Position numbers and translations under genes: made by a program. This document shows positions 28,401 through 56,236 of a stretch of DNA of 57,915 nucleotides, in pieces. Location: contig NW_026515684.1 in the NCBI RefSeq assembly GCF_025526975.1, forward strand, positions 558,001-615,915. The letters run 5' to 3'. The notes beneath the pieces were generated by a model. That model was given only the letters and a program-made list of their open reading frames with translations. It searched no databases and had not been told where the DNA came from. The first letter of the stretch is position 1, and every line of letters begins with the position of its first letter. This stretch comes from Fimicolochytrium jonesii (taxonomy: Eukaryota).

Positions 28401-28848
28401 ACGCTCTCTCGTAGGAGGGAAGTTTCAGCAGCACACAGAACACGGGCATTTGATTACCAGACAATGAACTGCTTTCGTAAACGCCGACCACGGGCGGTCA
28501 TGATACTCGTCCAGATACTCCTCCAACGTTCCCAGTGGCATATTGCTTGTTGATGAGTGGCGATCGTGCCAAGATTTCGGTGGTGATCGTGCCAGATGAC
28601 AATTGTTGCCGGCAACAATACACAGTCGCGTCTCGGACAAGCTAGACAACTCGCTCAACTCGCTCAACCGTTTCTTCCTCCTTCCGCAACCCGTCACTGC
28701 GAGACATCAAGGTTGCATCCCCCAACCCTACACACATGCAAGACCTCCGCCAGCTACAGCAGCCTCCTCTAGGGCCTTCACTTTGGCTCCCCGCTCTCCG
28801 TTTCGTGTCTGAGTTACTCTGGACTTGCGATTACTACTGACAATATGC

Positions 28849-30618
28849 ATGGGGAAGGTCACTGTCCGGATCCGCCAAGTCAAGAAGTGGAAAGATACCG
28901 GGTTGAAGAAGGCGAGGGAACTGGAGAGGTTGGCGAAGCTCCTGACGGTACGTTGCGTGGTGTCGCGGGAGATTATCCATCTTGTGCTGATTGTTGTGAT
29001 TCAGATGAAGAACCAGTATGAACAAGGTCATGCACGCCGACAGGCCCAGCATGCCTCGAGCGTCAGTATGGGTATGAAGGCCCACAGCCATCTGGCTGCC
29101 GCGCAGCAGACCATCTTCGAGGTGGCGTTCGTCCGGAAGAAGCAAAAGCGTGCGGATAATGAGGAGGACGGTGAGGAGTTGCCTCCGGCGAAGAAACGGA
29201 AGGCGGACGACGACGAAGATCGCGACGCGGATGACGACGAAGAAGAACGCGACGCCAGCGAAGAAGGCACCGACGAGGACGGTGAAGGCACTGCTGCCGT
29301 GCCCGCTAATGCGCAGTGGACCACACCAACATCCTCAAGCAAAGGATTTGGATTCGTCGATTCGGAGAGTGAAAGTTCGAATTCAACCATGTCATCAGCC
29401 CCCGAACCCGATGAGCCAGAGGAGGTGTCGGAGACAAAGCTTCGCGCCTCCCTGCAAGCGCTGAAAGGAAAGATGTGGGAAGTCGGCGGCGTAAATTTGG
29501 CCATCAAGATGCGGCGTATGCAGCGCGCAATGTTGGCGCGCCTGGAGAAGACGGGTCCAATCATAGAGACGGCAGCGACGCTTATCAGCGAAAACTGCCT
29601 GGTGATCACTGCGGAGAAGCCTAAAAGCTATTTCGCGTTCTCAGACGATGAGTGGGTCGCGGTACGGGGAGCGTTCGCGCAATACCGTCTGAAGCTAGAT
29701 CATGCTTATGAGGCCTACGCCCATGGCGAGGTTCAAAGGATGCTCACCGCAAGAGATCAGCGGCTACCATATCGCGCGTTGATCCGAGGGGAAGGCACGC
29801 AGGAGGACCACGACGTCGCGTTGCTCCTTGATCAGCTGAACAAAAGGCTTCGAACGACGAAACCTGATAGGGGGGTGCACGAAGCCACATGGTGCTGCAG
29901 ATACATGTTGCCCTACTTTGATGTGCTGAGCCCGGAGATGGTTTGGAAGTACGACAACGGTAGCCACTACGGTCCCAAACGCCCGGACTTTTCAATCGCC
30001 GACGATAAGGGCATCGGGCTCGCCAACTTTGAGGTCAAGTCCCCATGGGCCACAGACGCTGCGAAGTACCAGGATATCGCTCGCACCATCCACCGCGGGA
30101 TCGATGAGATGAAGCTGGACCTGCAGACGTGGCGACCGAAGCGTAGCCCAGCCAGGCTCTGCGTGGCGGTGGCAGCGGAGCAAGGGACGGTGTTCCAACT
30201 GATGCTGCACAAAGGCATCTTCGTGGCGGTTGAGATAGGCGTGTGGTGGTTCCCCACAGCGCTGCAAATGCATCAGGAGTGGCAGGTGGCGTCGTCTGTC
30301 GCTATGGCTTGCGCGATCATGAAGCGAGCTGGATGGGTGCGCAGGCAGGCGGCCCAGTACGTGAGGCTCGGGGTAAATGCGCCGCGGCTGAGCATCCTGC
30401 CGCCAGTGACACCTGTTTCTGTAGCAAAGTCGTCCGCTGCCAAGGGTGCGGCGCAAGCTGCCAAGCGTGCAGGTAAGCCGGGCGGTCCGCGTGCGGCTGT
30501 CCCCAATCCGCGGCCCCAGAAGACGAGCGCGGACCTTCCGGTGCAGAGCGTCCAGGTCAGTGCGCGGGCAGTCATGAAGCCTGCCAGTGGTACTTCTTCG
30601 AAGAAGCGTCAGGAGTAG
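28849..30618 (+). CDS. Putative PD-(D/E)xK restriction-endonuclease-fold protein (CR-REase-like) with acidic, NLS-containing N-terminus; probable 57-nt in-frame intron 28948-29004
   Basis: Long ORF with HEATW..Y..PYF, KRPDFSI, ANFEVKS and D..R motifs; PPAKKRK NLS-like segment; GTACGT..TTCAG intron signals. Confidence 0.6.
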   Translation: MGKVTVRIRQVKKWKDTGLKKARELERLAKLLTVRCVVSREIIHLVLIVVIQMKNQYEQGHARRQAQHASSVSMGMKAHSHLAAAQQTIFEVAFVRKKQKRADNEEDGEELPPAKKRKADDDEDRDADDDEEERDASEEGTDEDGEGTAAVPANAQWTTPTSSSKGFGFVDSESESSNSTMSSAPEPDEPEEVSETKLRASLQALKGKMWEVGGVNLAIKMRRMQRAMLARLEKTGPIIETAATLISENCLVITAEKPKSYFAFSDDEWVAVRGAFAQYRLKLDHAYEAYAHGEVQRMLTARDQRLPYRALIRGEGTQEDHDVALLLDQLNKRLRTTKPDRGVHEATWCCRYMLPYFDVLSPEMVWKYDNGSHYGPKRPDFSIADDKGIGLANFEVKSPWATDAAKYQDIARTIHRGIDEMKLDLQTWRPKRSPARLCVAVAAEQGTVFQLMLHKGIFVAVEIGVWWFPTALQMHQEWQVASSVAMACAIMKRAGWVRRQAAQYVRLGVNAPRLSILPPVTPVSVAKSSAAKGAAQAAKRAGKPGGPRAAVPNPRPQKTSADLPVQSVQVSARAVMKPASGTSSKKRQE

Positions 30619-30819: not shown

Positions 30820-31330
30820 TGTTATGACCATAAGCTTACCTCATGACAGCACACTGACAGCCGCCAATGTCAAACGCCAATGTCAATGTCAATGTCAATG
30901 TCAATGCCTTCTCCTCTCATTTCGCCAATCCCCCGCTCTCCTCTCATCCGCCAATCCCCCATTCGCCGCTCCTCCTCTACCCCGCTCATCTGTGAGCCAA
31001 TCTCTGGCCATTTGTCAACCCCCCCAGTACTTCTCCACAGCAGCTGTAGCTTGCTCTCTACACGCCTGCTACGCTCGCTCTAGGCTAGGAAGCATGGCTG
31101 GCGCTCACCCAGTCCCCTCTTGTTGTTGTCTTTGATCTGCTGGGTTGTTTATTTATAAATAGCCGCCCCCTCTTCGTCCATTCCCGTCCTCCCCAGCAGA
31201 TCAACACCAGTTTTTCTCATCTCCTGTTCTAGTCCTTGTTTCTTGTTTCGTCAATACAACCTCTTGTCACCTATCGCTCTCGCTCTGTCTTCTCTTCTTC
31301 GCTTCCGCATCCGTCGTCGAGATCATAACA
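30820..31330 (+). mobile_element. Solo LTR related to, but diverged from, the Gypsy LTRs at 34110, 38090 and 42882; opposite orientation
   Basis: TGTTATGA...TCATAACA termini, shared CCATAAGCTTACC, (AATGTC)n microsatellite, TATAAATAGCC; no matching TSD seen. Confidence 0.85.
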
Positions 31331-31479
31331 CACGGTTTGCGAGTTGCTGAGTGGATGACGCGGTGATCTTGAGATCGCTTTGTTATCCTGAACAGCGGTG
31401 CTTGGGCTCATAACCTAATAAGGCTATTATGTGCGCTGAGGTTGAATGAGGGAAACGATGTTATTACCAGTAATGTGCT

Positions 31480-31615
31480 AAAGTTCTATGAGCTATGCTA
31501 CGAGGGGAAGCTTTTCTACACAAGTTGCCATCATTGGCGACGCCTCAGGCAGAGGTACAATGATGTGGATGGCAGATAACCACCATGGAAAATGGAATGG
31601 GGTGAAAATTCTAGA
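31480..31615 (-). ncRNA. Candidate Fanzor omegaRNA (scaffold plus guide) downstream of the Fanzor stop codon
   Basis: Position expected for Fanzor ncRNAs; hairpin at 31569-31586; 8-bp stem 31529-31536/31558-31565 enclosing a CCTC/GAGG stem; boundaries are inferred. Confidence 0.45.
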
Positions 31616-32530
31616 CTACCTACGGTTACGGGAGAATGCGTCTGGTCTGTGGCCATTGCCAAACACCACCGAAGGCACAATCGAGAGGAAATTCTTGGTG
31701 CTTAGGACGTCCCGATTGTGCACTCTCATCCGTAGTCGTAGTGGTCGTCTTCCAGAAATCTCAAATGGCGTCCAGTCTTGGTTGATACATTCGGGGTTGG
31801 GGCAACCCACCAATCCATGGACAAATTCCATTCTTCCCTTTCGAGCTTGCCACGGCTGAGGTGACAGCCGGCGTCGGATGTTTTTCTTCACACGCCCGTG
31901 GCAGTCTGGGCACAGGGAGGACGTTCGATACTCATCTAGCAAGTAGCATGGAATGCTGTTTCTTGCAAAGAGTGTGCGGAATCTGATTTCCCCCCATGAG
32001 TGAGCGTATTATAATACATAAAAAACAATGATGGTCACTCACCCTTTGGTCTTTGATGACTCCTGAAAGCGCATGGTTTTTCCAGCGTCGCTCCAATCAC
32101 CCAAGATGACCGAAAAATGCTTTCCATACAGGCGTCGCATGTTCTTGATGAGCTTGCTCTCAGACTTTTGCCGCAGTGAGAACGCCTTGAATCTGCGAGC
32201 GACGTGAATCTCATCCTGTTAAAACTCATCCAGGGCGGGATCTGGGATATGGATGTCGGCCCATGTATTACCAAAGTTGAAAATCAAAGTTGAAGTGGAA
32301 CATCATACCCGCATGTTCGTAATCCACGATGAACGCTGAGAACGCCTCGATGTTCATGCTCTTGTGTGATGGAATATGTGATCCCATCTCTGCGATGCCG
32401 GCATTGATCTTTCGCTCCGTCATGTCTCGTTGAAAGTACCGAGACTTTGTCTCGACCGCCCGTTGATTGGATGTGTATCTGGTATGGGGTGGTGCATTGT
32501 GAGAACGCTGCAGTGGAATGTCGCCGCAAC

Positions 32531-32702
32531 GGGGATGGTGGGGATGGTGATGGGGGGGATGGTGACGGGGGGGATGGTGGGGATGGGGGCGGGGACAGGG
32601 TTGAGGAGGGCGTTGATGGGGATAGCGGCGACAGCGGCGACAGCGGGGACAGCGGGGACAGCGGCGACAGCGGGGACAGGGGCAACAGCGGGGACAGCAG
32701 GG
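32531..32702. repeat. G-rich 9-bp (GACAGCGGS) and GGGGATGGT repeats inside Fanzor intron 32479-32726
   Basis: Direct inspection; flanked by a GTACGT donor and CAG acceptor on the minus strand. Confidence 0.85.
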
Positions 32703-34685
32703 CAGTAGTAATCAACTGAAACGTACCGAAATGGCCGCTCCTTCTTGTTGTCTCGACAGAACAGGAGGTCACGCTTGCCTGGATCAATGCAGACGATGTT
32801 TGGAGCCTCCCTTAGTTCCGCAATGTGGTGCTCAAAATACAGCTGCTTGACTTCTTCCCGCATTTGGGCCTTGCTGCGCTTCCGGGCCTGATGCCCATAC
32901 TTGAGCCCTGGCTTCTTGAAGTGGATGGTAGCGGAATACCCGTTTGTGCTGATTGACCCATCAATTTTGAGACCAAGCTTCTTTCGATCCTTGAAGACCT
33001 TGTCCTGCAATCCGTCATTCAGCGAGGTAATTGAAATAGGCGCAAAAGGATACAGACTTAACTTACATTCACATTGAGAAACTGCCCCCACAGCTCCCGC
33101 TTGCGTTCATCGGTGAAGTTCCCCATGCGACCTTGGCTCAAACCCAGGATATGAATGGCTAGGATCAGCGTGTCAATCCGAACAGATGACTGGATTCGAG
33201 ATTTGCGCAGCGGGATAGCAGAGAACAGCCGCATTCCACAGCGCTCATAGAGGCGTGAGAGCTCACAATAGGCACCTGTGATGAGGCGAGGCAGGTGCAG
33301 ACCATGATTATACAAAAGAGGAAGCGGGGGGGGGCCGGAAATATACTAACTCACCCAAATATGGCATTGCGTCCACCGCAAGGCTGTACGCAAGCGGCTC
33401 ATCCTGGGGAGGAAACAGAGCCCATAACTTGTCGAGGACGGTCCGCTCAAGTCGTGTGAGGCGCGCAAGCTCCTCCTCGGTTGGGTACTCTTCAAACGTC
33501 GCAAATTTTGTAAATTGACGGACCCGCTGATAATACTGTCTCCGCTGCGCTCGGTTGGCTCTGGCTCTACGGAGATGCAGTACAACTTGCTTCAAACCAA
33601 TCCTTTTGTTAACGTAGCGCAGAAATATTTGCATAAAATGCTCTTGTACGTTAACTTTGAGGTTGGTGAAGATGCTCTGAGCCGTGTACGCTGCAGTCTG
33701 TTGGCAATATCGCATGCGTATGGGGGCAAATCTGTGAACATCGCAGTACTCTTGAACCCGTGGACGCAACTCTTGCCCGATGACTGGATTGCCATTGTAG
33801 CCTGGATTGTTTAGCAGCTCAAATATCACGCTGATGTGCTTGTCCGTGATGTCCGGCAAATCGTGTAGAGGATGATCGGCTGTGGTGGGCAGACCTAGCA
33901 GTCAGGACATTGTTATGGGAAATATTATGGGAAATATACAGTGCACCTAAAAAAACTCACCAAGGTAGTACTTGAGAAAGAAGGTGGTGTGGCGCGCAAG
34001 GACGTGAACATGGGCTATAAATGCTGTCAGGCGCTCACTTTGAACTTGATTTTGATTATGGATGATTCGGTGAAGGGAAACCTTGGTGCTGGCATGTGTT
34101 TGCGGGCGGTGTTATGATCTCGACAAACTGAGGCGGAAGCGAAGTAGAGAAGACAAGGCGAGAGCGATGGGCGACAGGAGATTGTATTGGCAAAACAAGA
34201 GACGAGGACTAGAACAAGAGATGAGAAGAACTGGTGTTGATCTGCTGGGGAGGAAGGGAACGGACAAAGAGAGGCCGGCTATTTATAGGTAGGCAACCCA
34301 GCAGATCAGAGAACAACAACAACAAGAGGGGACTGGGGGGGCGCCAGCTATGCTCCTAGAGCGTGCGTGGCGAGCGTAGAGAGCATTGCTACAGCTGCTG
34401 GCTATGGGGAAGTAGTGGGGGGTGTGGAGAAGCCGAGGGGGGATTGGCGAAATGAGAGGAGAGAGGAGGAGTGGCGATATTGCAAGAGGATTGGCGAAAT
34501 GAGAGGAGAGAGGGGGAGTGGCATTGACATTGACATTGACACTGACATTGACATTGACATTGACACTGACATTGACACTGACATTGACATTGACATTGGC
34601 GTTTGACATTTGGCGGTTGACATTGGCGGCTGTCAGTAGGTAAGCTTATGGTATGGGCGCGTCGTCCATAACATCACCCCTCTCT

Positions 34686-36626
34686 TTAGCGGCGGCGGCG
34701 GCGGCGTCGAGTTTGGTGTGGCCGCAGAGGAGGTGCTACGGGGACAGAGGAAGACTTGTTGGGGTACGCGCTGTGGAAGTCCTGGAGGAGTGCGTCGGTA
34801 TGGGTGAGGTGTTCCACGGGCTCCCAGGTGTTCTCGGAGTCAGGCCAGCCCTGCCATTTGACCAAGTACTGAAGGCGACAACAATGGATGCGAGAGTCAA
34901 GGATGGCTTCAACAACCCACTCTTCTTGACCCTCAATGGTCTCTGAGGGCGCGGGTTCGGGTTCGTGTTGTTCGGGGATGGTGAAGCGGGGTTCGAGGAG
35001 CGAGACATGGAAGATATCGTGGATTTTGTACGTAGGCGGGAGCTTGAGCCGGTAGGCGACGGGATTGATTTTTTCGACGATGGGGAATGGCCCAATCTTG
35101 CGATGGTCGAGTTTCTGAGAGGGCCGGGTTGTATGGAGGTTTTTGCGGAGGAGCCAGACGTGGTCGCCAGGCTTGAAGTCCGGTCCAGGAATTTGTTTGG
35201 CGTTGGCGTAGCGCTTCATTTGATCTTGGGCTTCCTTGAGCTCGAGGGCGAGCTGTTCATGGACTTCCCTGATTTGTTTAGCGCGGGCTTCAGCGGCGGG
35301 GTTGACGGATTCGGAGGTAGCAGAGGCCGCGAAACTGAAGCGGGGGTGGAGACCCTTGTTGGCGTAGAAGGGGGTGGTCTGGGAGGCGGACTGGTGGGTG
35401 TTGTTGTAGGCGAACCCGGCGGACGACAGAAGCTGTTTCCAGTTGTCCTGTTGGTGGTTGCAAAAGCATCGGAGATACTGCTCCAGGATCTGGTTGGTGC
35501 GTTCCGTCTGGCCATCGCTCTGGGGGTGGAAGGCCGAGGAGCGGTTGGCTTTTGCCCCAAGGAGTTCGAGAAGTCGACGCCAGAACCGGGACTTAAACTG
35601 GGGTCCTCGGTCAGAGATGACGTTGTCGGGGAGGCCGTGGAGACGGATGATGTTGTGGAAGACTAGGTCGGCGGTGGATTCGGCGGATTCTGACTCGCTG
35701 CAGGCGATGAAGTGGGCCATCTTGGTGAGGCGACAGTTGACGTTCAGGATGGAGTTGTACCCGTCCCCGGGAGGCAGACCGGTGATAAAGTCCAGGGACC
35801 AAGATCCCCAAGGGCGGGTAGGGATACTGTTGGGCTGGAGTAGGCCGTATGGTTTGTGTTGACTGGATTTCGCTTGGCTACAGGTATCGCAGGACTTGAC
35901 GTAGGCCTTGACGAAGCGCCACTGGCTGGGCCACCAGTAGTTGCGGGAGGCGAGTTCGAGCGTCTTGGACATCCCAAAGTGGCCGGCTAGGGGAGTATCG
36001 TGCATGTCGTGGCAGACTTCAGCTCGGAGCTCGTTGGTGGGGACATAGACCAGGTTATCGTGCAGCAGGATCCCATCTTCATCTGAGAACCGCTTGATAC
36101 GATCTTGGGTTTCCTCAGTTCGTTGGGCGAGGGGTATCTTGAGCTTTTCGCGAATGGTCTTAGCGAGGGGATCAGAGGCCTGGGCGGCCTTAAGCTTGTC
36201 AAGCAGCGTGGTATCCATGGGTGTGAGGTAGGCAGCCGTGAGTTGAAGGCGTTCGGGAGTCAAAATTGTGGTTGCCTGGGAGCGGAACGCTTCTTCCCCC
36301 TCTTTTAGCTCATGTTCGGAGCGTCGGGAGAGGGCATCGGCTTGGTGCTGCTGGGGACTGGGGCGATAGGTAATGACAAAGTCAAAATCCGAGAAGAATA
36401 TCGACCAGCGGGCTTGGCGGCGGTTCAGGGTGCGGGTGGTCATGAAGTACTGAAGGTTTTTGTGGTCGGAGTAAACGGTGATCTTGTGACGGGCGCCAAT
36501 GAGATGGTGGCGCCACTGGGCAAAGGAGTCTTGGATGGCCAGAAGTTCCTTGTCATAGATCTCGTAGTTGATCTCTTCGGCCGTGAATTTGCGAGAGTGG
36601 AAGGCCACGGGGTAGGCTGCATCCAT
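34686..36626 (-). CDS. Partial Pol: RNase H, integrase (HHCC + DDE) and chromodomain
   Basis: PVAFHSRK..NYEIYDKELLAI; HD.P.AGH..C..C; WSLDFITGLP, ISDRG, DGQTERTNQ; GPF; EWVVEAILDSR..YLVKWQG..ENTWEP. Confidence 0.95.
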   Translation of the reverse strand: MDAAYPVAFHSRKFTAEEINYEIYDKELLAIQDSFAQWRHHLIGARHKITVYSDHKNLQYFMTTRTLNRRQARWSIFFSDFDFVITYRPSPQQHQADALSRRSEHELKEGEEAFRSQATTILTPERLQLTAAYLTPMDTTLLDKLKAAQASDPLAKTIREKLKIPLAQRTEETQDRIKRFSDEDGILLHDNLVYVPTNELRAEVCHDMHDTPLAGHFGMSKTLELASRNYWWPSQWRFVKAYVKSCDTCSQAKSSQHKPYGLLQPNSIPTRPWGSWSLDFITGLPPGDGYNSILNVNCRLTKMAHFIACSESESAESTADLVFHNIIRLHGLPDNVISDRGPQFKSRFWRRLLELLGAKANRSSAFHPQSDGQTERTNQILEQYLRCFCNHQQDNWKQLLSSAGFAYNNTHQSASQTTPFYANKGLHPRFSFAASATSESVNPAAEARAKQIREVHEQLALELKEAQDQMKRYANAKQIPGPDFKPGDHVWLLRKNLHTTRPSQKLDHRKIGPFPIVEKINPVAYRLKLPPTYKIHDIFHVSLLEPRFTIPEQHEPEPAPSETIEGQEEWVVEAILDSRIHCCRLQYLVKWQGWPDSENTWEPVEHLTHTDALLQDFHSAYPNKSSSVPVAPPLRPHQTRRRRRRR

Positions 36627-36885
36627 GAAACAGGACCTCGCACCGATGTCCAGGAGGGCGGCAAGCTGGAGTGGGGCTCGGCGAGAGGAGATCAGGAGGG
36701 TGACTCCAAGGTTTTGGTAGCTAGAGGTAGGGTGTTGCTGGTGACTTGGGGTGAACTGGGCGTGGGTGCGCCCTCTGCCGTTGCAATTGTTGCGGGGTGA
36801 GAAGGCCTACGGGAGGATTTGTTCAGCGCGCCGGCCTTTAGTGTCTACGGGGCCGGCGGGAACGGAAGCGATCTTCCAAGGTGAG

Positions 36886-37225
36886 AGGGTTGCGAGAGGC
36901 GAGCATCCTTTGTGTGGACCCCGCGAGAGGCAAGCATTCCTTTCTGGGAACCCTGCGGAAACCGAGATGAGAGGCGAGCATTCCTTTCGGAACCCCGCGG
37001 AAACCGAGGCAAGAGGCAAGCATTCCTTTTTGGGAACCCCACGGAAACCGAGACGGGAGGCGAGCATTCCTTTGGGAACCCCGCGGAAACCGAGACAGGA
37101 GGCCAGCATTCCCTTTTGGGAACCCTGCGGAAACCGAGATGAGAGGCGAGCACTCCTTTCGGAACCCCGCAGAAACCAAGGCGAGAGGCGAGCATTCCTT
37201 TTTGGGAACCTCGCGGAAACAGAGC
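36886..37225. repeat. About 40-bp minisatellite (~8 copies) inside the Gypsy element
   Basis: Repeated GAGAGGCGAGCATTCCTTT..GGAACCCCGCGGAAACCGAG. Confidence 0.9.
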
Positions 37226-37789
37226 ATGGGAGAGTGGCCCCCGCCGTTGCAATTGCTGCGTGGTGAGGTGGCCCAAGGAAACAGGGTACTGCGGATCGTA
37301 GGAAGGTGGTTGCTGGCTTCTGCCGTTGCAAATGGTGCGAGGTAAGAAGGCCAGGGAAGCCGGGGTCGGGAATTGTCGGACGTGCAGAACAAGGAACGGA
37401 GATGGAGGATGGATTGAGCTGCAACATGACAAGACGGGTGACGTGGACAACGGTCCTTGAAGTGATCGTTTGCCCACATGCCCTCGGGTAATGGGTGTGA
37501 TGAGTTACTGAGATTCTTCATGGTGTCATCTTCGTGCCTGAGACGGGGATGCGGGACTTGGATTGGGATGGCCGGAAACAGGGGTGTCAAGCAAGAACGA
37601 GAGGGTTGGCTTCTTCCGTTGCAGTAGATGCGGAGGTGAGAAAGCCCAAGGAAAAACAGACGAACAGAGCGGGTGGAGTGTTGAGGGTCTCCGGGTGTCG
37701 GCGGTGGTGTGTCGAGGTACAGGGTTTAGTTACAGGGTGACCGGGTTACTGGAGGTGCTGAGCCGAGCTGGTGTTGGGTGCTAGGGCGA

Positions 37790-38021
37790 CTAGGGCTGGT
37801 TCAGGCGGCTGAGGTTGCCTGGGCTTGAGCTGATCTTTGGCTCCAGAGCTTCAGGCGCAGGGTTGGGGATTTGGGGATGGGTGTACGCATCGGGTTGAGC
37901 CTGGGCAGCAATGTTCTGAGCAGCTTGTGCGTTGGCTTGGGCTTGGGCTAGGTTGGCGTTGACTTGGCACATATCATTCCATTGCTTTGGCGGTGAAAGG
38001 TACGGATTCGGATTGGGCCAT
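37790..38021 (-). pseudogene. Remnant of the gag N-terminus
   Basis: Follows the 5' LTR and leader; Q/A-rich segment ending APEALEPKIS, then disrupted. Confidence 0.5.
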
Positions 38022-39259
38022 GGCGAACAGGTTTGGCAGATGCAAGGCTTGACGGGTTCTGAACTTCGCAGTGTTGGAGCAGATCAAACTGTTATGATCT
38101 CGACGAACTGAGGCGGAAGCGAAGTAGAGAAGACAAGGCGAGAGCGATGGGCGACAGGAGATTGTATTGGCGAAACAAGAGACAAAGACTAGAACAAGAG
38201 ATGAGAAGAACTGGTGTTGATCTGCTGGGGAGGAAGGGAACGGACGAAGAGAGGCCGGCTATTTATAGATAGGCAACCCAGCAGGTCAGAGAACAACAAC
38301 AACAAGAGGGGCTGGGGGGGCGCCAGCTATGCTCCTAGAGCGTGCGTGGCGAGCGTAGAGAGCATTGCTACAGCTGCTGGCTATGGGGAAGTAGTGGGGG
38401 GTGTGGAGAAGCCGAGGGGGGATTGGCGAAATGAGAGGAGAGAGGAGGAGTGGCGATATTGCAAGAGGATTGGCGAAATGAGAGGAGAGAGGGGGAGTGG
38501 CATTGACATTGACATTGACACTGACATTGACATTGACATTGACACTGACATTGACACTGACATTGACATTGACATTGGCGTTTGACATTTGGCGGTTGAC
38601 ATTGGCGGCTGTCAGTAGGTAAGCTTATGGTATGGGCGCGTCGTCCATAACAGGCGGGGTCGTTGAACTGGTGGTGGTGGCGGGGGTTCAAGCACCAGGG
38701 ATCGACCCGGTGTGCTGGGAAAACGGAAAGGGATGGGCGCGGGGAGGTGCAGTGGGCGCTGCAGACCCCTGTCCGCGGGTGAAAGCCCTTGCTGCGGCTG
38801 CTGCTGCTGCCCGTCTTCATCGCCGGAGCTCTCGCCAACCATGTCTGCAATTGCTTGGGGCAAGTGGCGTTGGACAGAAGGTGGGAGCTTGAATCGCAGG
38901 GTTTGCAATGGTGTGGCTGGCAAACGTATCGGCAATCGCGGGGTAACCGGAGCAACCTTCCTCCTCTTCCGCCGTGGTGCGGCTGCTCCAGTAACGATGC
39001 CACACCACAGGTGCCCCTGGAGCGCCTGGTGTGAGGACATGTTGGCTGTGCTGTGCCGAGACAGGTGTTGCAGGTGATTGCCGTGATGGCTGTGTGTCAA
39101 AGAACTCGCGTCAGTGCTGTGGTAATGAGCGGGGAGGATTTACAGCCTGGCGCAGTCGTGGCTTGTCCACACCGCATCTCCAAGACCACACTCTCCTCCT
39201 CTCACACAAAACGTCAAGCGCTCGCAGCTCACGCAACTCACGCAGAGCACACTCTGAGC

Positions 39260-41023
39260 ATGGAAACGTCAAGCGCTCGCGGCGGACGACAGCCCCCTCA
39301 CCCCCCTGGCCAGCGCCCACCTCCTTCCAGCTCAAGCCCGGCAACTCATGCAGAGCAAGCACATTTGAGCATGGAAACGTCAAGCGAGGTGAGTGGCCGC
39401 TGGGTGTTGACCGCCTGGGCTCGCGGCCCATGTTGAGCACGACCGCCGCTTGCGGGAGGTCGACCTGCATGGGCCGTGCTGTCTGGGCGTGTTTGCCATA
39501 CGCTGCTCTCGCGGCCCATGTTGAGCACGACCGCCGCTTGCGGGAGGTCGACCTGCATGGGCTGTGCTGTCTGGGCGTGTTTGCCATACGCTGATCTCGC
39601 GCCCTATGCTGAGCACGACAGCCGCTTGCGGGAGGTTGACCTGCATGGGATGCGCCGCCCTGGTCGCGATCGGGCTGGGTCTGCTAACGCCTTCCCTTCC
39701 CCCCCTCCCTCTACCGCGCCGCAGGCCACGCCCCCGGTCGCACCCACCGCGGTCGAGGCTCTTCTGATGGGCATGGGCGAGACCCGCGCCACAGCTATCT
39801 TCGGCGACACGGTGGCCTTTTTGTATCTGCTGCTGGTAGACACCGGCCTTGCCGCCCGGGACGCCAGCCTAGAAGACAAGGCCAAGGCGATTGGCCTTTT
39901 TTCACAGAAGATCAAGCAAGACAACCCCACCCTTTGGGGTTGGTGGATCAATAGGCCAACGCGCTCCCGTCACCAGAAGAAGCGCGCCAAGCACCACATT
40001 GAGCTCCAGTCCGGCATCATCGCCGCGATCAGCGATGGCAGTCTTACCACGGCCGACTTCTCAGTCGACCTCCAGCCCTCCGCTAGCCGCCCGGCTGTTC
40101 ACATTGTGGTGCCAACGCCCGCCTCGTGCGATGGCTGGGAGGGCAAGATGGTCTATGCGGGGTTTGGGAAGAGGCTGGCGAAGGCGAGGGGCCTGGATGG
40201 GCTTGAGCAAATTGAACCCCAGGCGGGGGCGGACATCTACATCTGCGACGAGCACGGCGTCCTTGTGGCCACAATCTCGTACAATAGCGCGGGTCGTCGC
40301 GAACACGACCTGCGGCTGGGGCTCATTGTCGAGTCCTGTGGATCCCGGCCGGCTGTGGTTCGATGGAAGGCCTCAAGGGGCACAATGCACGCTGCGGGGC
40401 TTCGTCCTGGCAACAAGAACTCGGGATATGCCAGGGGGACATCGCACTATTCAATGAAAGGAGGGGCAGACATGTCCGCAAAGAAGTTTCTCGTCGCCAC
40501 GGAAAAGGCCTTCACCAAGCGACTGCTGCAGGAGCTCGCCAACCGCGACCCCACCGCGGCGGCATACCTGATGATGGCCATGCCAGAGGTGTACGGGCCA
40601 AATTCCGATGAGTTCCCCCCGCTGTTCGCCACCACCAACTATCAAGTGGTCGTTCACTCCGACCCGTCGGACAACGGCGTGGCCGGCAAGCTGAACCCGC
40701 ACACAGGCCACGCCATATGGAAGTCAACCCCCAAGGAGGAGCTTCCGGAGGAGCTTCAAGCCCGCAAGCTATGCGCGCAATGGGCGGCAGGCTATGCCGC
40801 CGCTCCGGCAACCGTCGTCGGTGAGTGGGCATTTGCGCTGCCAGAGCAAGGCTTCTACTTGGTGCTGCAGCCCGACTGCATGTGGGTGTGGATGCCTCAC
40901 AAGCTCCACGGAACGGCGGTGCTTGACATGTCCAGGGGCAGTCGCCACACGGCTGTTGTGACGCTGCCCCTGGCGACGGCCGCGGCCATCCGGAAATACA
41001 GCCTCCCTGATGAAGATGAATAA
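39260..41023 (+). CDS. TET/JBP-like 2OG-Fe(II) dioxygenase (about 475 aa); exon 1 39260-39388, intron 39389-39724, exon 2 39725-41023
   Basis: GTMHAAGLRPG; FATTNY..VHSDPSD (HxD at 40655); FALPEQG..LVLQ..WVW..KLHGT (distal His at 40907) followed by R; intron has GTGAGT donor, GCTAAC branch point, pyrimidine tract and CAG. Confidence 0.7.
39421..39649. repeat. 88-bp tandem repeat (~2.6 copies) inside the intron of the TET/JBP-like gene
   Basis: Units start at 39421, 39509 and 39597. Confidence 0.92.
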
Positions 41024-41429
41024 CCCGGCTAAATAATCCTTCCCCACAGTCATCCGTTCGGACCTTTTAGGTCGTCGGTCTAATATATAGCAACCCTCCG
41101 CTCTCTAACTCATCATCCGCTCGGACATTTTTGGTCGCTGGTTGTTAGTGTAGAAATGAATGCAATGTACACAAGTCGCTACCCACGACGGTCTTCTGGA
41201 AAGCCTTCCTGAATGACACACTGCGTTCGAAAACTGTTAGAAACGTTCGAAGCGAGGCGATAATTTTATCCTGGGGTCCACCTGGGGACCCGGACTTTTT
41301 CTTCAGGGTCCTTTGAACGGGCAGAAAAGCCAGCGCCGACCGCCGGCATTCCCAGGCATTACCTGTACTGTACTCCAGACCGCTTCAAGGTATTTCAAGG
41401 TAGCGGGATGTGCCTTCTTGCCCCCCGAT

Positions 41430-41470
<41 letters not shown>

Positions 41471-41584
41471 TGCGCTCAGGTAACCTCGGGCATACCTCCA
41501 CGCCGTGCATCTACTTGGAAGGAACGGAGCGGTCCGCAACACTATAGGTGAGAATTAGATGCAGCGATGCTCGTCCACAGCGCT

Positions 41585-41753
41585 ATCAACTCGCGCTTGC
41601 TTGAGGCAGCTCGGAATAGGAGCAGCCTCGCGATATGCTACCCTCTCAACTCGACTAGCGCTTGCTTGAGGCAGCTCGGAATAGGAGCAGCCTCGCGATA
41701 CGCTACCCTCTCGACTTGACTGGCACTCGCTTGAGGCAGCTCGGAATAGGAGC
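41585..41753. repeat. 65-bp tandem repeat (~2.5-3 copies)
   Basis: GCTTGAGGCAGCTCGGAATAGGAGC at 41599, 41664 and 41729. Confidence 0.9.
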
Positions 41754-42001
41754 TCCCCCTTTGGGAGCGCTAGCGAGCAACCTTCGCGGGCGAAACCGCG
41801 CTGTATATTATAAACGATAAATAGATACATATGATCCAGCACATCTTTGGACCCAACGACGCCGGATCCCGCACGGCGAGACCCGACTTCGGCGATATGG
41901 TAAATGAGATGCACTACCATTGCATGAAATGAGATGAGCTGCGGGAGCCCGTGCGCGATCCGACCCAAAGATGGCGGCGATATGAGAGATGAACGGTTTG
42001 A

Positions 42002-42151
42002 CGTGCGGGGGCCAAATTTCTCCCCAAAATCCATTGAGGGCTGACTAGTACAGCGTGGGGAGAGAATTGGTCCCTCGACGCGACGCACTTCCCGGTTGGG
42101 CGTGCGGGCGCCAAATTTCTCCCCAAAATCCATTGATGGCTGACTAGTACA
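42002..42151. repeat. About 50-bp direct repeat pair
   Basis: CGTGCGGGSGCCAAATTTCTCCCCAAAATCCATTGAKGGCTGACTAGTACA occurs twice. Confidence 0.9.
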
Positions 42152-42224
42152 AGTACTGACGCCTTCCTGTCAGTCGAGCAGCCACCTCAAGACGCATGGT
42201 TTGAAACCAAGCCGCCATCAAACT

Positions 42225-42420
42225 TCCGAACAATCCCGTGGATCATCAGCGAACGAAACACATTGACGTTCGACACCACTTTATTCGGGAACTTGTAGCT
42301 GAACGCAAGCTAGATATTCAGTATATCTCAACAAAAGAAATGATAGCGGACATCCAAACGAAAGCTCTTCCAAGACTGGCCTCTGTTTATTTACGGGAAT
42401 TATGTGGGCTACGACAGTAA
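42225..42420 (+). mobile_element. Ty1/Copia RNase H C-terminal fragment
   Basis: NP..HQRTKHIDVRHHFIRE.V....DIQYIST.EMIADI.TKAL. Confidence 0.9.
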
Positions 42421-42443
42421 AGTGTACACTACACGCCGTATTG

Positions 42444-42875
42444 TTAAATAATGGCTCTTCGGAGCCAAGTGAGCGGCGGAGTGTCAAAAGCTACATGACA
42501 CGACGGACACCGAACTTGATTTGACGGGTGACGCCGAACAAGATAAATGGAGCATCCATTGCATATGGTGCAGTTGCCACACGAGGTCACCATGCGACAC
42601 AAGATGGGATTAGTGCCGCACATGCAGCACTGACGATTGTGCCGGTCCCAGGTTAAGTAAACTGGCCACGGGGCTCTAAGAGAAGCAATCAATACACGTT
42701 TATCAGTTGAATTACCTCCTCTCACCACTCACCGACAAACGCCACAGCGTGGGGCGTGCAAATGAGACACCATCTCCTGGACGATGCACGTACGGCAAGA
42801 TAGGTGCCCGCACGGCCCGTTGTAGATGGCAGGGTTGACCATACAGATCGGGCAAGTTGGACCACCGTTCGGCAT
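42444..42875 (-). CDS. Small tandem RING-finger protein (about 124 aa); intron 42676-42732
   Basis: Exon 1 MPNGGPTCPICM..GPCGHLSCRTC..PRCGVCR (C3HC4); exon 2 CCMC..SCGNCTICNGC..RCPSC; GTGAGT..TAG intron joins the exons in frame. Confidence 0.7.
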
Positions 42876-42881
42876 CTTGAT

Positions 42882-43420
42882 TGTTATGATCTTGACGACG
42901 GAGGCGGAAGCAAAGTAGAGAAGACAGGGCGGGAGTGATAGGCGACAAGAGCTTGTATTGGCGAAACAAGAAACAAGGACTAGAACAGGAGATGAGAAGA
43001 ACTGGTGTTGACCTGCTGGGGAGGAAGGGAATGGACGAAGAGAGGCCGGCTATTTTTAGATAGGCAACCCAGCAGATCAGAGAACAACAACAACAAGAGG
43101 GGACTGGGGGGCGCCAGCTATGCTCCTAGAGCGTGCGTGGCGAGCGTAGAGAGCATTGCTACAGCTGCTGGCTATGGGGAAGCAGTGGGGGGGTGTGGAG
43201 AAGCCGAGGGGGGATTGGCGAAATGAGAGGAGAGAGGAGGAGTGGCGATATTGCAAGAGGATTGGCGAAATGAGAGGAGAGAGGGGGAGTGGCATTGACA
43301 TTGACATTGACACTGACATTGACACTGACATTGACATTGACGTTGGCGTTTGACATTTGGCGGTTGACATTGGCGGCTGTCAGTAGGTAAGCTTATGGTA
43401 TGGGCGCGTCGTCCATAACA
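42882..43420 (-). mobile_element. Solo LTR of the same Gypsy family
   Basis: Near-identical to 38090-38652; TG..CA ends; TSD TTGAT at 42877-42881 and 43421-43425. Confidence 0.95.
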
Positions 43421-44356
43421 TTGATGGATTGGTTGGATTTGGGTGTCGGAGAGATAGAGTGTGTTGTTGATTGGAATGGAGTTATGAGCGGGAGTTGGAC
43501 AGGCTGACTTTTGGACAGCTCGAGTCGGGGGAGTGTTGTGCAGAGACGCGAACTATCCTGCCAGTTGCTGTCATTGTGTAAGCAGACGCGTAAGCAGTCT
43601 GGTCACGGTCAGAGAGACAAAGACCCCGACGCCAGAGTCCGGAGTATATAAACATACAACAAGTAATACAAAAAGACCAGTAATGGTTCTACTCTTCATC
43701 GGCTACTTCCCAGTAATAACTCAACACGTTCTCCAATAAGACCGGACAACCCAACACGCATTACACGTTTCCCCGGGATCCCTATGCTCAAGCATCGTAC
43801 AACGTTGTTATCATATGTGTGAGGATATCTCAGAATGCTCTACTACGTATGGGAACCCCAGGGTCCTGCAGCCCGTACTTGTGTAACCCCACGTGTACTG
43901 ACAGTGCTTTTTGACAGCGAGATGAGCGAGTCTCGACTCAACACGTAGCTGGGGGATCCGTTACGGGGTTTGTTGTCCGAGTGGTTGTGCCGTTCCGCAC
44001 GGCGGTTGGGCGAGTTCCGGCTTTGCGGCCGTCTGTTCCGACACCTTCCCGGGACTCTACAAGCGAGAGAGGAGCAACTGCCGCTACTGATACGCACCGG
44101 ACTTTTCAACACCTCCGGTATGTTCTGATTCCCTTTACTAAGTTGACTCTGCCGCAGTGTAGCCATGGGTTCAGATTCTTAGCCATGGGACCGATCCGCC
44201 ATGGGTTTTAGCTTCTTTAGAACGCTTCCCTTCCGAAATGAATCGGAACGCGTGAAATGTGGAATGTTCTTCAACCCGGTTGCCAATCGTCCCGCGAGTT
44301 CGCGGGCTGGCATGCGGCGTCAAATGCGGGCGGCCGCAAACAAGAGCAAACAAAGG

Positions 44357-45690: not shown

Positions 45691-46129
45691 TGGCCGTGAA
45701 AAACTGTTTATGCACTTGCAAAAAGCTCGAAAAATCTACGGGTTAACAGTCGATGACAGAAGGTGAAAAGTCGCCCGACGAAACGCGCGAAGCAGCGTAA
45801 AGCCTGGCGCAATGCTACCTTCCCCTACCTTCCCACGACACCCACAACCGACGAATCCACGATCACAACAACGCACCCCGGCGGAGCACCATACTGTACA
45901 TATTCGACGACGACCACCACCGCACGAGCCTCACGGAGCCTCCCGCGATGTCGACCCGCAGTGCTCGGCTTGAAAAGGAAAGGGTGGGGAACGGCGTCCC
46001 CGGTCCACCATCGGCGTATTTTCCCCATCTGCCATCCCCTTCATCTTGAACGTCTCGAGAGCAGCACCGTACCAGCAGCAATAGAACCTTTCGCGTCGAC
46101 CAGTTCGCCCGCTTTCGCAGGTCGTGGAG

Positions 46130-48039
46130 ATGAGTCCGTTTTCTACCATCTCCGCCATCGGTTCGCTGGCGCTCGCAGTCAGCACCCTGGCGGCGCCGCC
46201 CTCGAAACCCAGCCCCATCTGCAAGTGTCTGTCATCCGGCCCGTCCTGCTTTCCCCCAACCAGAACTCTTGACGCCTTCAACAAGACCATAGAGGGACGT
46301 CTTGCAAAGATCTCACCTCCCGCCATAGTATGCTATCAAGGCCCCGAATTCGATGCCGCCGCATGCGAGGCCTTGCGAGCCAACGCCACAAACCCTTACT
46401 TTTGGGGAGAGCATATTGGGGCCACGATGTACCCAAAGACGTTGGGCGGCGAGTTTGGTGTCAATGTTTGTCCAGCTTCATTGAATTCCTCGCTTCCGGA
46501 CTCTGCATGCGGACAAGGAAAAGTGTCCTCTTTCGGCGTTGATGCTCGCACCGTGGAGCACGTTCGGAAGACCGTCAAGTTTGCTGCAGCCCATAACCTC
46601 CGTCTGACCGTGAAGTCCACCGGCCAGTTAGTGCAAACCGCTTTGGTCATATGGGGCCCCATGTTCTTCAATCTGATATCATTTCATCTGTTCCTAGCGA
46701 TCAAGCTGGCCGCAGCTCCGCAAAAGGATCTTTCCTTCTGTGGCTTCATCATTTGCGCGGAATCGAGTTTGTTGACACCTTCATTCCGGAGTCTTGCACT
46801 GCTAGAGCCGGGTTGCCTGCCGTGACCGTCTCCGCTGGCGAGCAATGGGGCACTCTTTATGAGCAAGCCGAGGCCCGTGGCCTTGCTGTTGTTGGGGGCG
46901 CCGTACAGACAGTCGGGGTTATCGGTGGATACCTTCAGGGAGGAGGACACAGCCCTTTGTCTCGTAAGCATCAATTTCACTTTCCTGCGTTTTGCTGACG
47001 GTATGAACATGCGGCTGATCGGTCTCACCTGCGATCAGGAACCTACGGAATGGCGAGCGACCAGGTCCTGGAGTTCAAAGTGGTTACCGCCGACGGGCAG
47101 CTGCGCACCGCTAACTCGTGCACCAACCAGGACATCTTCTTTGCTCTGCGAGGTGGCGGCGTTGGATACGGCGTCGTTACTTCCGCTACGATTCGGACCT
47201 ACCCATCTCCAAAGACGGCCCTCGCTTTGTATACGATTGAGGCAAATGCCGGAAACATCACAAAAAATGCTGCCCTCCTGCGCCAAAAGTTTGTCGACAG
47301 CCAACCCGAATGGGACAAGATCGGACTCTCCGGTTACATCGGCTTTGGTTCGACAACCCTGTGGCTTGCATTGTTTCAGCCCAACGGCAGCAATGCTACC
47401 ATTGCCGCTGCGCTCAAGCCGTTATTCGATTTTGCGGATCCAGCGCGCTTTGCGGTCGCCGGCGTATCCTTCGGCTCGCCCACCTTCTATTCGGCGTACC
47501 GCATGTTCAAGTGCTACCTTAACAAGGGGTTGTGCACCGATACGGTGGGCGAAAACGGGGCGCTTGGCTCCCGTCTCATCCCAACCAAGCTGTTCCAAAA
47601 CCAAAAAGGCCGCGACAAGGTCGGCGCGGCCCTCTCATCGATTCTTGACATGGGCACCAACTTCCTGGTTGTGCATTTTATCGCTGGCGGGCAAGTGTCC
47701 AACTTCCCACCTGATGCGACGGGTCTGAATCCTGCGTGGCGACAAGCACTCTGGCACGTTGTTACGGCCAACTTTTGGGCCGACGATGCCAATGCGGCTC
47801 AGATTTTGCAGAAGAGACGTGCCACGACCGCGCAGACAAAGGTTCTCGCCAAGCTCTCGTCCCATGCTTACATCAATGAGGCGGATGAGGCCGAGGCGGA
47901 CTGGCAGAATGCGTTCTATGGCACTCACTACAAGTACCTGCTCCGGATCAAGAACAAGTATGACCCTGCGGGGCTTTTTGTATGTCATCAGTGTGTTGGG
48001 TCGGAACGGTGGTCTGCGGACGGGAATTGTAGAGTGTAG
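46130..48039 (+). CDS. Secreted FAD-linked oxidoreductase (berberine bridge enzyme-like); introns 46627-46697 and 46964-47038
   Basis: Signal peptide; CKC..GPSCFP; VKSTGH/DQAGRSS (FAD-binding His split by an intron); GGYLQGGGHSPLS; FFALRGGG; AYINEAD..WQNAFYG..Y..LL.IK.KYDP. Confidence 0.93.
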
Positions 48040-55127: not shown

Positions 55128-55196
55128 GGGTTAGGGGTTAGGGTTAGGGTTAGGGTTAGGGTTAGGGTTAGGGTTAGGGTTTAGGGTTTAGGGTTA
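55128..55196 (+). repeat. Interstitial telomeric array (~10 units with TTAGGGG and TTTAGGG variants)
   Basis: Direct inspection; same polarity as the terminal telomere. Confidence 0.97.
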
Positions 55197-56236
55197 CAAG
55201 ACCCCCTGGGTTGGGTTTTATTATTGGGTTGCCTGGAACCCTAGGGACTTAGAAATTTTCGAGTTTTTTGGCTTTTGGGTGTGTTCTACAGTTCAAATTC
55301 TTGACTCTGAGGGGTGTGGTGGCGGGGGGTGTTGCGCACCTAGGCAAGTCGGGGGGGACTAGGTGTGCAAGGGCAAGTGATGGGTCATATGGGTGGTGGT
55401 GCGGGTACGGGGGGGGGGGGGGCAGGGGTGCCAATAGGGGGGGGGGGGGGTTGATATAAAGGGGACATATATGTTATATATACGTTATAGGACTTGTGCA
55501 AATTGGGATTTTTTTAGTGCCGATCCGGAGTTGGCGTCCTAATTAAAAGTTGGCCCCATATCATATTCTCTAATTGAAGTACTCTCGGATTGGCAATCCG
55601 TGCGGAAACGGCTTCAGAAACTTAGAAAAACGAAATTTTCACGCGACAGGGGGTAAAAAATTGGAAAATGTGGTGATATCTCAACATCTGGCTGAATATC
55701 CAGTGTTGGGCACTTAATGAAAGTTGATTGTAGCCTATGGTTTGCATAGCTGATGTGGTAGCAAATCTTGTGTAACCTCGCTTTTGGCTGAAGAAAAGGG
55801 CCCCTTTTCAATTCTCAAGTAGTGACCCCCAAGACCTCCTAACAAAAGACACGAGTACGTATGTGCAGGCAAAGGGGTTTGGCTGTGTTCTCCAGTAAAC
55901 ATTTTGTGATTCCGCTGTGCATTGTAGACTGTTTGTAGGACCCTTGCGGAATGTTATTTACCAAAACTGTTGAACATTTTCCGGTTAAAGCAGTGTTCTA
56001 CAGTTTGTCCATGCAGGTTAGAGCACGTGACCTGGGCTTGCTTGCAGGGTACGCAGAGTGAGAGGGTTGGGGTTAGAGATTTCCCAGATCACTTATTAAA
56101 TTCAGCCAAACTGTCTCTGTCATGGAACATTTAAAATGGTGGAAAGTAGTATTGCATTTATTGATTTAGAGTACATTGGAAAAGCGCACATTCAGAAAGG
56201 GTTTTGGTGTAAAGTTATCAACGACATGCAACAGTA

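What the first reader, a model, noticed from the sequence alone, without database searches (positions are those of the whole stretch)
31616..39040. Hidden intron-rich Fanzor1 that can be reconstructed in frame
Seen: seven exons join through six canonical GT-AG introns (33895-33960, 33276-33354, 33005-33066, 32479-32726, 32242-32308, 31983-32042). Removing 34110-38652 plus one GGCGG copy restores ..VQRPR-PQTHASTKVSLHRII.. in frame, 765 codons from ATG 39040. The RuvC D/E/D residues and four zinc-ribbon cysteines are intact. The only lesions found are the retroelement and a TAA at 32219-32221, at a position where Tyr would be expected (F-Y). Inference: inactivated fairly recently, so a functional enzyme might be restored by two edits, or intact paralogs may exist.
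Basis: partly seen in the sequence, partly recalled or inferred. Interest (0 to 1): 0.85.

Follow-up and report, generated by a model that had tools for sequence, protein, structure and literature searches.

The report
Six-intron Fanzor1 beside Tet-like gene
This is a broken copy of a multi-copy, six-intron relative of the Fanzor RNA-guided DNA cutters in a chytrid fungus, with a predicted guide RNA at its end; in at least three copies it sits head-to-head with a gene that likely encodes a Tet-like DNA-demethylating enzyme, a pairing I did not find described.

Summary
Observation confirmed: six GT-AG introns, a 4.5-kb Gypsy insertion with GGCGG duplication, and one TAA. The product is a Fanzor1; a full-length paralog matches solved SpuFz1 at E 4.6e-149. 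Named hits place it in the chytrid Fimicolochytrium jonesii, with 35 family gene models on 22 contigs.

Corrections:
- Intron 1 likely ends at 33880 (760 codons, not 765).
- "Two edits" understates the damage: 32 private changes, no left end found, altered terminal TA.
- Intron-rich Fanzor1 genes and Gypsy insertions in them are already published.

Added here:
- Metagenome contigs show the empty insertion site, a Tyr codon at the TAA, and the right end at 31520.
- A 75-nt omegaRNA scaffold is predicted at 31593-31519.
- A divergent multi-copy ORF (39518-41023) has HxD..H..R and resembles Tet-like dioxygenases by language-model features only; Pfam gave no hit and two folds failed. The head-to-head pair recurs at two other loci.

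No RNA data were available. The scan holds no look-alike; one unchecked note reports an intron in S. punctatus SPu-3.

The parts
38653..39040 (-). Fanzor1 exon 1, 5' part (codons 1-129): family-specific Pro/Gln-rich extension that SpuFz1 lacks; includes one GGCGG copy (38653-38657)
   Evidence: SpuFz1 alignment starts at P0027 residue 129
38954..38977 (-). PRRKRRKV basic cluster, candidate nuclear localisation signal (likeness to classical NLS is recalled)
   Evidence: present in paralog N-termini
34110..38652 (-). Ty3/Gypsy chromodomain LTR retrotransposon inserted in exon 1. LTRs 38090-38652 and 34110-34673; pol remnant 34686-36806 (RNase H part, integrase, SH3, chromo; no RT family among 9 Pfam hits)
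   Evidence: empty site joined in one X1 contig
33961..34104 (-). Fanzor1 exon 1, 3' part (second GGCGG copy at 34105-34109)
33355..33879 (-). exon 2 (REC region by alignment to SpuFz1)
33276..33354 (-). intron 2, 79 nt, phase 1
   Evidence: 13 of 13 models contiguous
33067..33275 (-). exon 3
33005..33066 (-). intron 3, 62 nt, phase 0
   Evidence: 17 of 18 models
32727..33004 (-). exon 4 with RuvC-I Asp (GAT 32785-32783; D496 in 760 numbering, aligns to SpuFz1 D383)
32479..32726 (-). intron 4, 248 nt, phase 2, swollen by 9-nt and 15-nt repeats
   Evidence: 17 of 17 models
32309..32478 (-). exon 5
32242..32308 (-). intron 5, 67 nt, phase 1
   Evidence: 18 of 19 models
32043..32241 (-). exon 6 with the premature TAA (32221-32219) and the GDWS motif of the rearranged RuvC-II
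31983..32042 (-). intron 6, 60 nt, phase 2
   Evidence: 14 of 14 models; spanned by an X2 DNA contig
31616..31982 (-). exon 7: alternative catalytic Glu (31933-31931, aligns to E541), CPDC..CPNPEC zinc finger, RuvC-III Asp (31711-31709, aligns to D606), stop
31519..31593 (-). predicted 75-nt omegaRNA scaffold ending at the element's right end; the guide would be the flank from about 31518 to 31504
31519..31565 (-). right terminus of the element; family contigs end at 31520 and their flank consensus suggests a terminal TA, where this copy reads TG
39415..39678 (+). three 88-nt tandem repeats at the 5' end of the partner gene, shared with other loci
39518..41023 (+). divergent intronless 501-aa ORF, multi-copy, H380-S-D382..H464..R476; likely Tet-like 2OG-Fe(II) dioxygenase

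Best explanation
This is a pseudogenised copy of a multi-copy, six-intron Fanzor1 gene, likely carried by a TA-flanked DNA transposon of the chytrid Fimicolochytrium jonesii, whose intact members would work like SpuFz1 and at least some of which likely carry a divergent Tet-like dioxygenase gene. Shown: exon structure, catalytic D/E/D and zinc finger, multi-copy family, Gypsy insertion with target duplication, nonsense codon, and a right boundary 96 nt after the stop. Inferred: spliced mRNA makes a ~759-aa nuclear protein. It binds a ~90-nt omegaRNA made from the right end (75-nt scaffold plus flank-derived guide) and cuts the empty donor site next to a TA-ending TAM, so that repair restores the element. 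A transposase elsewhere in the genome would move the element through DNA, which keeps the introns. The Tet-like protein would oxidise methylated bases (5mC or 6mA) on or near the element and counter silencing. This copy is dead: a reverse-transcriptase-less Gypsy element, a TAA and further drift disabled it.
For: Sequence join. Match to SpuFz1 across all junctions, which is a single-exon CDS. 35 F. jonesii family models on 22 contigs; 12 of them, the window included, form one 100*-supported branch in a quick tree. Junctions agree in 13/13, 17/18, 17/17, 18/19 and 14/14 models. An X1 contig skips 34105-38652 exactly. An X1 contig reads TAC at the TAA, and three X1 contigs stop at 31520 with unlike flanks. 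Stop-to-end distance is 96-97 nt here and 96 nt in Spu-1. The first 20 nt of the predicted scaffold match the SpuFz1 omegaRNA at 13 of 20; 32 of 115,790 window positions score that well. The predicted first stem spans nt 9-28, near where SpuFz1 stem 1 lies. Partner: 11 further copies. Gene model P0015 on another contig runs antisense through the partner ORF, the 88-nt repeats and the spacer into the Fanzor ATG. P0013 and P0035 have consecutive accessions, against 0.05 expected by chance. Atlas top hits score 0.95-0.96 and carry PF20515, with further 0.91 hits to clusters that are 100% PF20515.
Against: No transcript or small RNA was seen; junction support is gene models plus homology. The scaffold folds no better than shuffles (z -1.1; the opposite strand folds better, z -2.65), and its second stem (nt 29-65) differs from SpuFz1's 35-75. 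An 18-position test against nucleotides named in the SpuFz1 paper gave 9 of 18, which about 2% of positions reach. No left inverted repeat in the window, so the transposon class is not established. Partner: no Pfam, PHROG, NCBIfam or PDB profile hit; Atlas recognition 1897 is under the 2300 guide value, and PF20515 is on only 15% of the top cluster's members. 10 of the 11 other partner models are not accession-adjacent to any of the 25 Fanzor models whose accession I had. The upstream extension of P0014 does not match this window's spacer.
Confidence: 0.8

Rival explanations
1. The Fanzor1 element and the Tet-like gene are separate repeats. The head-to-head pair arose once (one element landed in or next to the other) and was then spread by segmental or subtelomeric duplication, with no functional link.
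For: This copy lies about 19 kb from a telomere. Only 3 loci show the pair, against 35 Fanzor models and 12 partner models. No left end encloses the partner. P0014's upstream differs.
Against: The paired copies are not each other's closest relatives: the window's Fanzor is sister to P0029, not P0013, and its partner is closer to P0031 and P0191 (90-91%) than to P0035 (87%). Partner and Fanzor paralogs have diverged to a similar degree (mostly 81-91% vs 84-94%). Gene models undercount pairs in repeats.
Confidence: 0.35
2. The 39518-41023 ORF is not a Tet/JBP-type dioxygenase but another repeat-borne protein; the HxD..H..R pattern is incidental.
For: No profile or structure match. HxD is intact in 8 of 12 copies and the Arg in 6 of 12. 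Both AlphaFold2 models were unusable.
Against: Atlas scores of 0.95-0.96 with 196-212 shared features; shuffled proteins reach 0.95 about once in 100; all ten best family-bearing hits are of one family or clan. The motif order fits the 2-His-1-carboxylate triad described in PMC12730594 section 3.4.
Confidence: 0.25
3. The whole family is extinct: every copy is a decaying relic, the full-length model P0027 is inactive, and there is no working nuclease or omegaRNA left.
For: Only 1 of 35 models runs from the family ATG to the C-terminus with all catalytic residues, and it has 17 private changes, including T>K in the motif before the zinc finger. Of 13 differences between X1/X2 contigs and this copy, 9 change the residue. 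CpG is depleted in the element (0.73-0.88 vs 1.01-1.21 in five host-gene regions).
Against: 10 of 18 aligned paralog models keep D/E/D and four Cys; several differ little from the majority (P0010 1.2%, P0023 0.8%); short models may only reflect wrong start choice.
Confidence: 0.3

Closest known systems
SpuFz1 and the Spu-1 element of Spizellomyces punctatus (PDB 8GKH; Saito 2023 PMC10432273; Bao and Jurka 2013 PMC3627910)
   Same: Closest solved relative (E 4.6e-149 for P0027; 38-47% identity to three named S. punctatus paralogs). D383/E541/D606 and the CCCC finger align. Same stop-to-end distance and a similar scaffold 5' end. No transposase in the locus; Gypsy insertions occur in both.
   Different: Six introns against a single exon; about 125-aa N-terminal extension; N385 is Gly; TAM contacts R96 and N133 are not kept while Q129, Q130, R291 and Y345 are (read by eye), so the TAM may differ from CATA; unrelated terminal sequence; no left repeat near the ATG; divergent Tet-like neighbour.
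Intron-containing Fanzor1 of Chlamydomonas reinhardtii (CRe-1, 5 exons; CRe-2 and CRe-3, 10 exons; PMC3627910; CrFNuc in PMC10530073)
   Same: Multi-copy, spliceosomal introns, RNA from the 3' end.
   Different: Those sit in Helitron2 elements of a green alga; here the end looks TA-flanked and the host is a chytrid whose close relative's best-studied Fanzor1 is intronless.
TET/JBP-carrying fungal DNA transposons (Kojima 2025, PMC12730594; Pfam PF20515 Tet-like)
   Same: Multi-copy repeat-borne protein with HxD and a downstream His, proposed to counter methylation silencing.
   Different: Reported from Pucciniomycotina, Agaricomycotina and Pezizomycotina, next to a transposase or Helitron gene; the main text has no 'chytrid' word. 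Here it is in a chytrid, next to a Fanzor1, with no transposase seen; enzyme identity is not established.
Ty3/Gypsy chromodomain LTR retrotransposons
   Same: LTRs, 5-bp target duplication, RNase H-integrase-SH3-chromo order.
   Different: No reverse transcriptase family detected in the pol remnant, so it likely moved in trans.

Membership tests
Fanzor1 | C-terminal motif D-X(125,275)-[TS]-[TS]-X-X-[C4 finger]-X(5,50)-RD (PMC3627910) | tested here: met
   D496, T658-S659, C662/665/698/703, R728-D729
Fanzor1 | Rearranged RuvC-II: Gly at the canonical Glu position, alternative Glu downstream (PMC10530073; G500/E536 in PMC3627910) | tested here: met
   GDWS at 619, E655 aligned to SpuFz1 E541
Fanzor1 | Full-length homology to Fanzor1 rather than Fanzor2/TnpB | tested here: met
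   PDB hits are the three solved Fanzor1 proteins only
Fanzor1 | Multi-copy element with a defined right end just after the gene | tested here: met
   35 models on 22 contigs; three X1 contigs end at 31520
Fanzor1 | omegaRNA scaffold at the right end | tested here: inconclusive
   position and 13 of 20 match fit; folding not significant and stem 2 differs; no Rfam hit
Fanzor1 | Expressed omegaRNA and RNA-guided, TAM-dependent cleavage | not testable with these tools
   needs small RNA-seq and a cleavage assay; this copy cannot encode the full protein
SPu-1 family | ~2.1-kb element, single ORF, 30-33-bp terminal inverted repeats on both sides | tested here: not met
   six introns; no left repeat in the window; terminal sequence unlike Spu-1. 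It works like SPu-1 but is a different family
TET/JBP (Tet-like 2OG-Fe(II)) dioxygenase | HxD plus downstream His triad and a 2OG-binding Arg (the Arg is recalled) | tested here: met
   H380-S-D382, H464, R476 in P0190; HxD in 8, His in 9, Arg in 6 of 12 copies; motif picked by eye
TET/JBP (Tet-like 2OG-Fe(II)) dioxygenase | Profile match to PF20515 or PF12851 | tested here: not met
   no hit at E 5-10; only language-model similarity. Not filed as a member
TET/JBP (Tet-like 2OG-Fe(II)) dioxygenase | Double-stranded beta-helix fold | tested here: inconclusive
   AlphaFold2 pLDDT 32 and 37 on 10-sequence alignments
TET/JBP (Tet-like 2OG-Fe(II)) dioxygenase | Oxidation of methylated DNA bases | not testable with these tools
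   bench assay
Ty3/Gypsy chromodomain element | LTRs, 5-bp TSD, RNase H before integrase, chromodomain | tested here: met

The most novel reading that the evidence does not exclude
F. jonesii carries a transposase-less DNA element that pairs an RNA-guided Fanzor1 nuclease with a divergently transcribed Tet-like dioxygenase: one cargo restores lost copies by cutting, the other erases or rewrites the host's methyl marks (this species has over 1% 6mA, PMC11258239), perhaps also controlling whether the AT-rich TAM can be cut. It would be the first Fanzor-TET element and the first TET-bearing transposon outside Dikarya in the papers I could search.
Probability: 0.4. Interest if true: 0.72.

Novelty: new variant of a known kind. 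Interest (0 to 1): 0.52.

Why it matters
As a Fanzor alone it is a new family close to SpuFz1, the best-studied eukaryotic RNA-guided nuclease. Its TAM-contact residues differ, so it may offer another TAM, and a natural full-length paralog and a predicted guide scaffold make that directly testable. Six introns in a transposon gene whose relative in the same order is intronless give a clean case for studying intron gain or loss in mobile DNA. The larger point is the likely Tet-like partner. If both genes ride one element, a homing-type nuclease and an anti-silencing enzyme act together in a 6mA-rich fungus, which bears on the open question of what Fanzors do in their hosts.

Tried and rejected
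- No assembly was held, so paralog DNA, termini, flanks and dN/dS could not be examined.
- Sequencing runs: no RNA holder listed. Two DNA metagenome runs with a 0.05 word share were laid; parts without cover, including most of the partner gene, say nothing.
- Left inverted repeat: best match 9 nt within 39041-42880, below the shuffle median; no second copy of the terminal 22 nt (best 15 of 22) and no match to the interior of X1 record 3.
- Metagenome scan with the terminal 22-mer gave one contig (L001) with no similarity beyond the 22-mer; rejected as chance.
- Viral contigs: no relative of the Fanzor or the partner. Phage tblastn: only E 8-9.
- Pfam finds none of the Fanzor exons at E 0.01; Rfam finds nothing in 31300-31700.
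- Two AlphaFold2 jobs on the partner failed, so no fold search was run; the Fanzor was not folded.
- The tree is the quick version (47 rows; short hits and most near-duplicates left out); the careful search did not finish.
- Intron read-through in paralog models was detected only for introns 4 and 5 by the 8-residue test.
- Rejected readings: membership of SPu-1; the 33895 acceptor as the main junction; a canonical Helitron end (it ends CTTG, not CTRR); a giant-virus insert (the one passage on this species in PMC13533422 mentions only a lone capsid gene).
Full report
Observation. The six introns are at the stated coordinates with GT..AG ends. Joining the exons and dropping 34105-38652 gives 765 codons with one internal stop at codon 584. 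The insertion has LTRs of 563 and 564 nt that differ by 7 C/T transitions and one gap, with GGCGG on both sides. Its only long ORF gives RNase H, integrase, SH3 and chromo hits but no reverse transcriptase among 9 Pfam families. The window ends in TTAGGG repeats.

Identity. The last exon matches SpuFz1 (8GKH) at E 5.9e-27. A search with exon 2 returned 18 proteins, 15 named Fimicolochytrium jonesii and 3 Spizellomyces punctatus; the top hit is 100% identical and is this locus's own truncated gene model. With cluster members and an N-terminal search I had 35 F. jonesii models on 22 contigs. Models are not loci: P0005 and P0024 have consecutive accessions. Paralogs are 84-94% identical to this copy and the three S. 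punctatus proteins 38-47%. P0027 (761 aa) is a full-length model and matches SpuFz1 at E 4.6e-149. SpuFz1's catalytic D383, E541 and D606 (PMC10432273, passages) align to D496, E655 and D729; its N385 is Gly in this family. In a quick tree of 47 rows the 12 F. jonesii rows form one branch (100*) inside a 96* group with the S. punctatus proteins.

Junctions. Family models read contiguously across the LTR site in 19 of 21 cases and across introns 2-6 in 13/13, 17/18, 17/17, 18/19 and 14/14. The shorter form aligns to SpuFz1 without a gap, so the product is likely 759 aa. These are predictions, not transcripts. The independent check is that SpuFz1 is a single-exon CDS (PMC10432273 Supplementary Data 1, part 1 of 83) and aligns across every junction.

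Outside DNA. Two metagenome runs hold short related contigs. One X1 contig joins 34104 to 38653, the empty site. One reads TAC at the TAA. Three begin at 31520 and continue into unlike sequence, which marks the right end; their flank consensus gives TA where this copy has TG (consensus of three at 0.57 agreement, so weak). One of the three matches only the last 38 nt, about 46 allowing a 2-nt gap, and may be a left repeat or a ghost element.

Guide RNA. In Spu-1 the element ends 96 nt after the stop and its last 75 nt form the omegaRNA scaffold (PMC10432273, parts 2-3 of 8). Here the end is 96-97 nt after the stop. I set the register by eye on a UCC triplet; it then coincided with the contig boundary. 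At that register (31593) 13 of the first 20 nt match the SpuFz1 omegaRNA printed, a score reached at 32 of 115,790 window positions. The predicted first stem covers nt 9-28. Against this, the fold is not better than shuffles (26 of 200 as good), the second stem differs from SpuFz1's, the opposite strand folds better, and an 18-position test was uninformative. No left end was found.

State of this copy. Besides the insertion and the stop, it has 32 private differences from the family majority over 756 columns, 10 of them where S. punctatus agrees with the majority. P0027 has 17 and 6; P0010 has 7 and 5. Ten of 18 aligned paralog models keep all catalytic and zinc residues. A natural paralog or the majority sequence is therefore a better test object than a two-edit repair.

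A 501-codon intronless ORF (39518-41023, +) starts about 480 nt from the Fanzor ATG. The other five frames hold 7-16 stops. Eleven further F. jonesii models match it, most at 81-91%, and no other organism was hit. It has H380-S-D382, H464 and R476. ESM Atlas returns Basidiomycota clusters at 0.95-0.96, the top one with PF20515 (Tet-like 2OG-Fe(II) oxygenase) on 15% of members, and 0.91 hits to clusters that are wholly PF20515. The recognition value is low. Pfam, PHROGs, NCBIfam and PDB profiles give nothing and two folds failed. I put Tet-like identity at about 0.7.

Linkage of the two genes. Model P0015, on a 427,701-bp contig, matches the antisense partner frame (39868-39503, E 4e-26), the repeat and spacer (39489-39349, 89%) and then the Fanzor start. 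P0013 and P0035 have consecutive accessions, with 0.05 expected by chance. The other 10 partner models are not adjacent to any of the 25 Fanzor models with known accession. The nine short models and P0011 had no accession; five of the nine lie on contigs that also carry a partner. The pair thus exists at three or more loci, but whether it is the family's rule is open. CpG is mildly depleted in the Fanzor, LTR and partner sequences (0.73-0.88) relative to five host-gene regions (1.01-1.21), which hints at cytosine methylation of repeats. The species has over 1% 6mA (PMC11258239, passages), and CcTet acts on both 5mC and 6mA (PMC12730594 section 3.4).

What is known. Fanzor1 genes with 5 and 10 exons (PMC3627910, passages), intron and NLS gain (PMC10530073, passages), Gypsy insertions in Spu-1 and TET-carrying transposons in Dikarya (PMC12730594, passages and section 3.4) are published. 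I found no paper on this family or on a Fanzor-TET pairing: Fanzor+intron+Spizellomyces gave 1 review; Fimicolochytrium 17 papers, 15 listed, none on Fanzor by title; JBP+dioxygenase+transposon+fungi+Fanzor 0; Fanzor+TET+dioxygenase 2 reviews, listing only; Fanzor1+chytrid since 2024, 0. Nine Saito supplements lack the genus name and one could not be read. The two Jiang supplements lack even Spizellomyces, so they are uninformative. Kojima's supplements were not searched, and subscription journals are outside the library.

Verdict. As a hidden intron-rich Fanzor1 it is a new family of a known kind. The interest lies in the predicted guide RNA, a possibly different TAM and the recurrent Tet-like partner.

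Noticed in passing
window 31517-31525 (+), 41168-41176 (+), 43877-43885 (-): The 9-mer at the Fanzor right end recurs twice (3 matches against 0.19 expected; pattern chosen after the fact) with no similarity beyond it. 43885 could be a very short left terminus of a 12.4-kb element enclosing both genes; the X1 boundary at 31520 argues against it.
   Followed up: partly
window 42882-43420 and 30820-31330: Two solo LTRs of the same Gypsy family: 96% identical with a TTGAT duplication, and 87% identical without matching flanks. Four LTR copies lie within 13 kb.
   Followed up: partly
window 38090-38652 vs 34110-34673: All LTR differences lie in the last 220 nt; the first 340 nt are identical, which suggests gene conversion or a recombinant element.
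   Followed up: no
window 42205-42420 (+): 71-codon frame that looks like the RNase H tail of a Ty1/copia element (motif recalled; not confirmed by a profile).
   Followed up: no
window 55130-55200 and 57695-57915; ORF 56237-57067 (-): An internal TTAGGG array 2.5 kb inside the telomere; between them a 276-codon frame with a weak transposase zinc-ribbon hit (PF12760, E 0.002, under the cut-off).
   Followed up: no
window 41586-41780, 41994-42151, 41050-41142: Further tandem or near-tandem repeats (65, 59 and 30 nt) downstream of the Tet-like ORF; they may belong to the same element.
   Followed up: no
window 1856-25618 and 46085-48039: Ordinary host genes: ubiquitin-conjugating enzyme, PDCD2, arginine methyltransferase, chitin synthase, LigB dioxygenase, berberine-bridge-like oxidase; a repeat-rich ORF at 13094-15589.
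   Followed up: no
window 28813-30618 (+): 601-codon stop-free frame with no Pfam hit next to the solo LTR.
   Followed up: no
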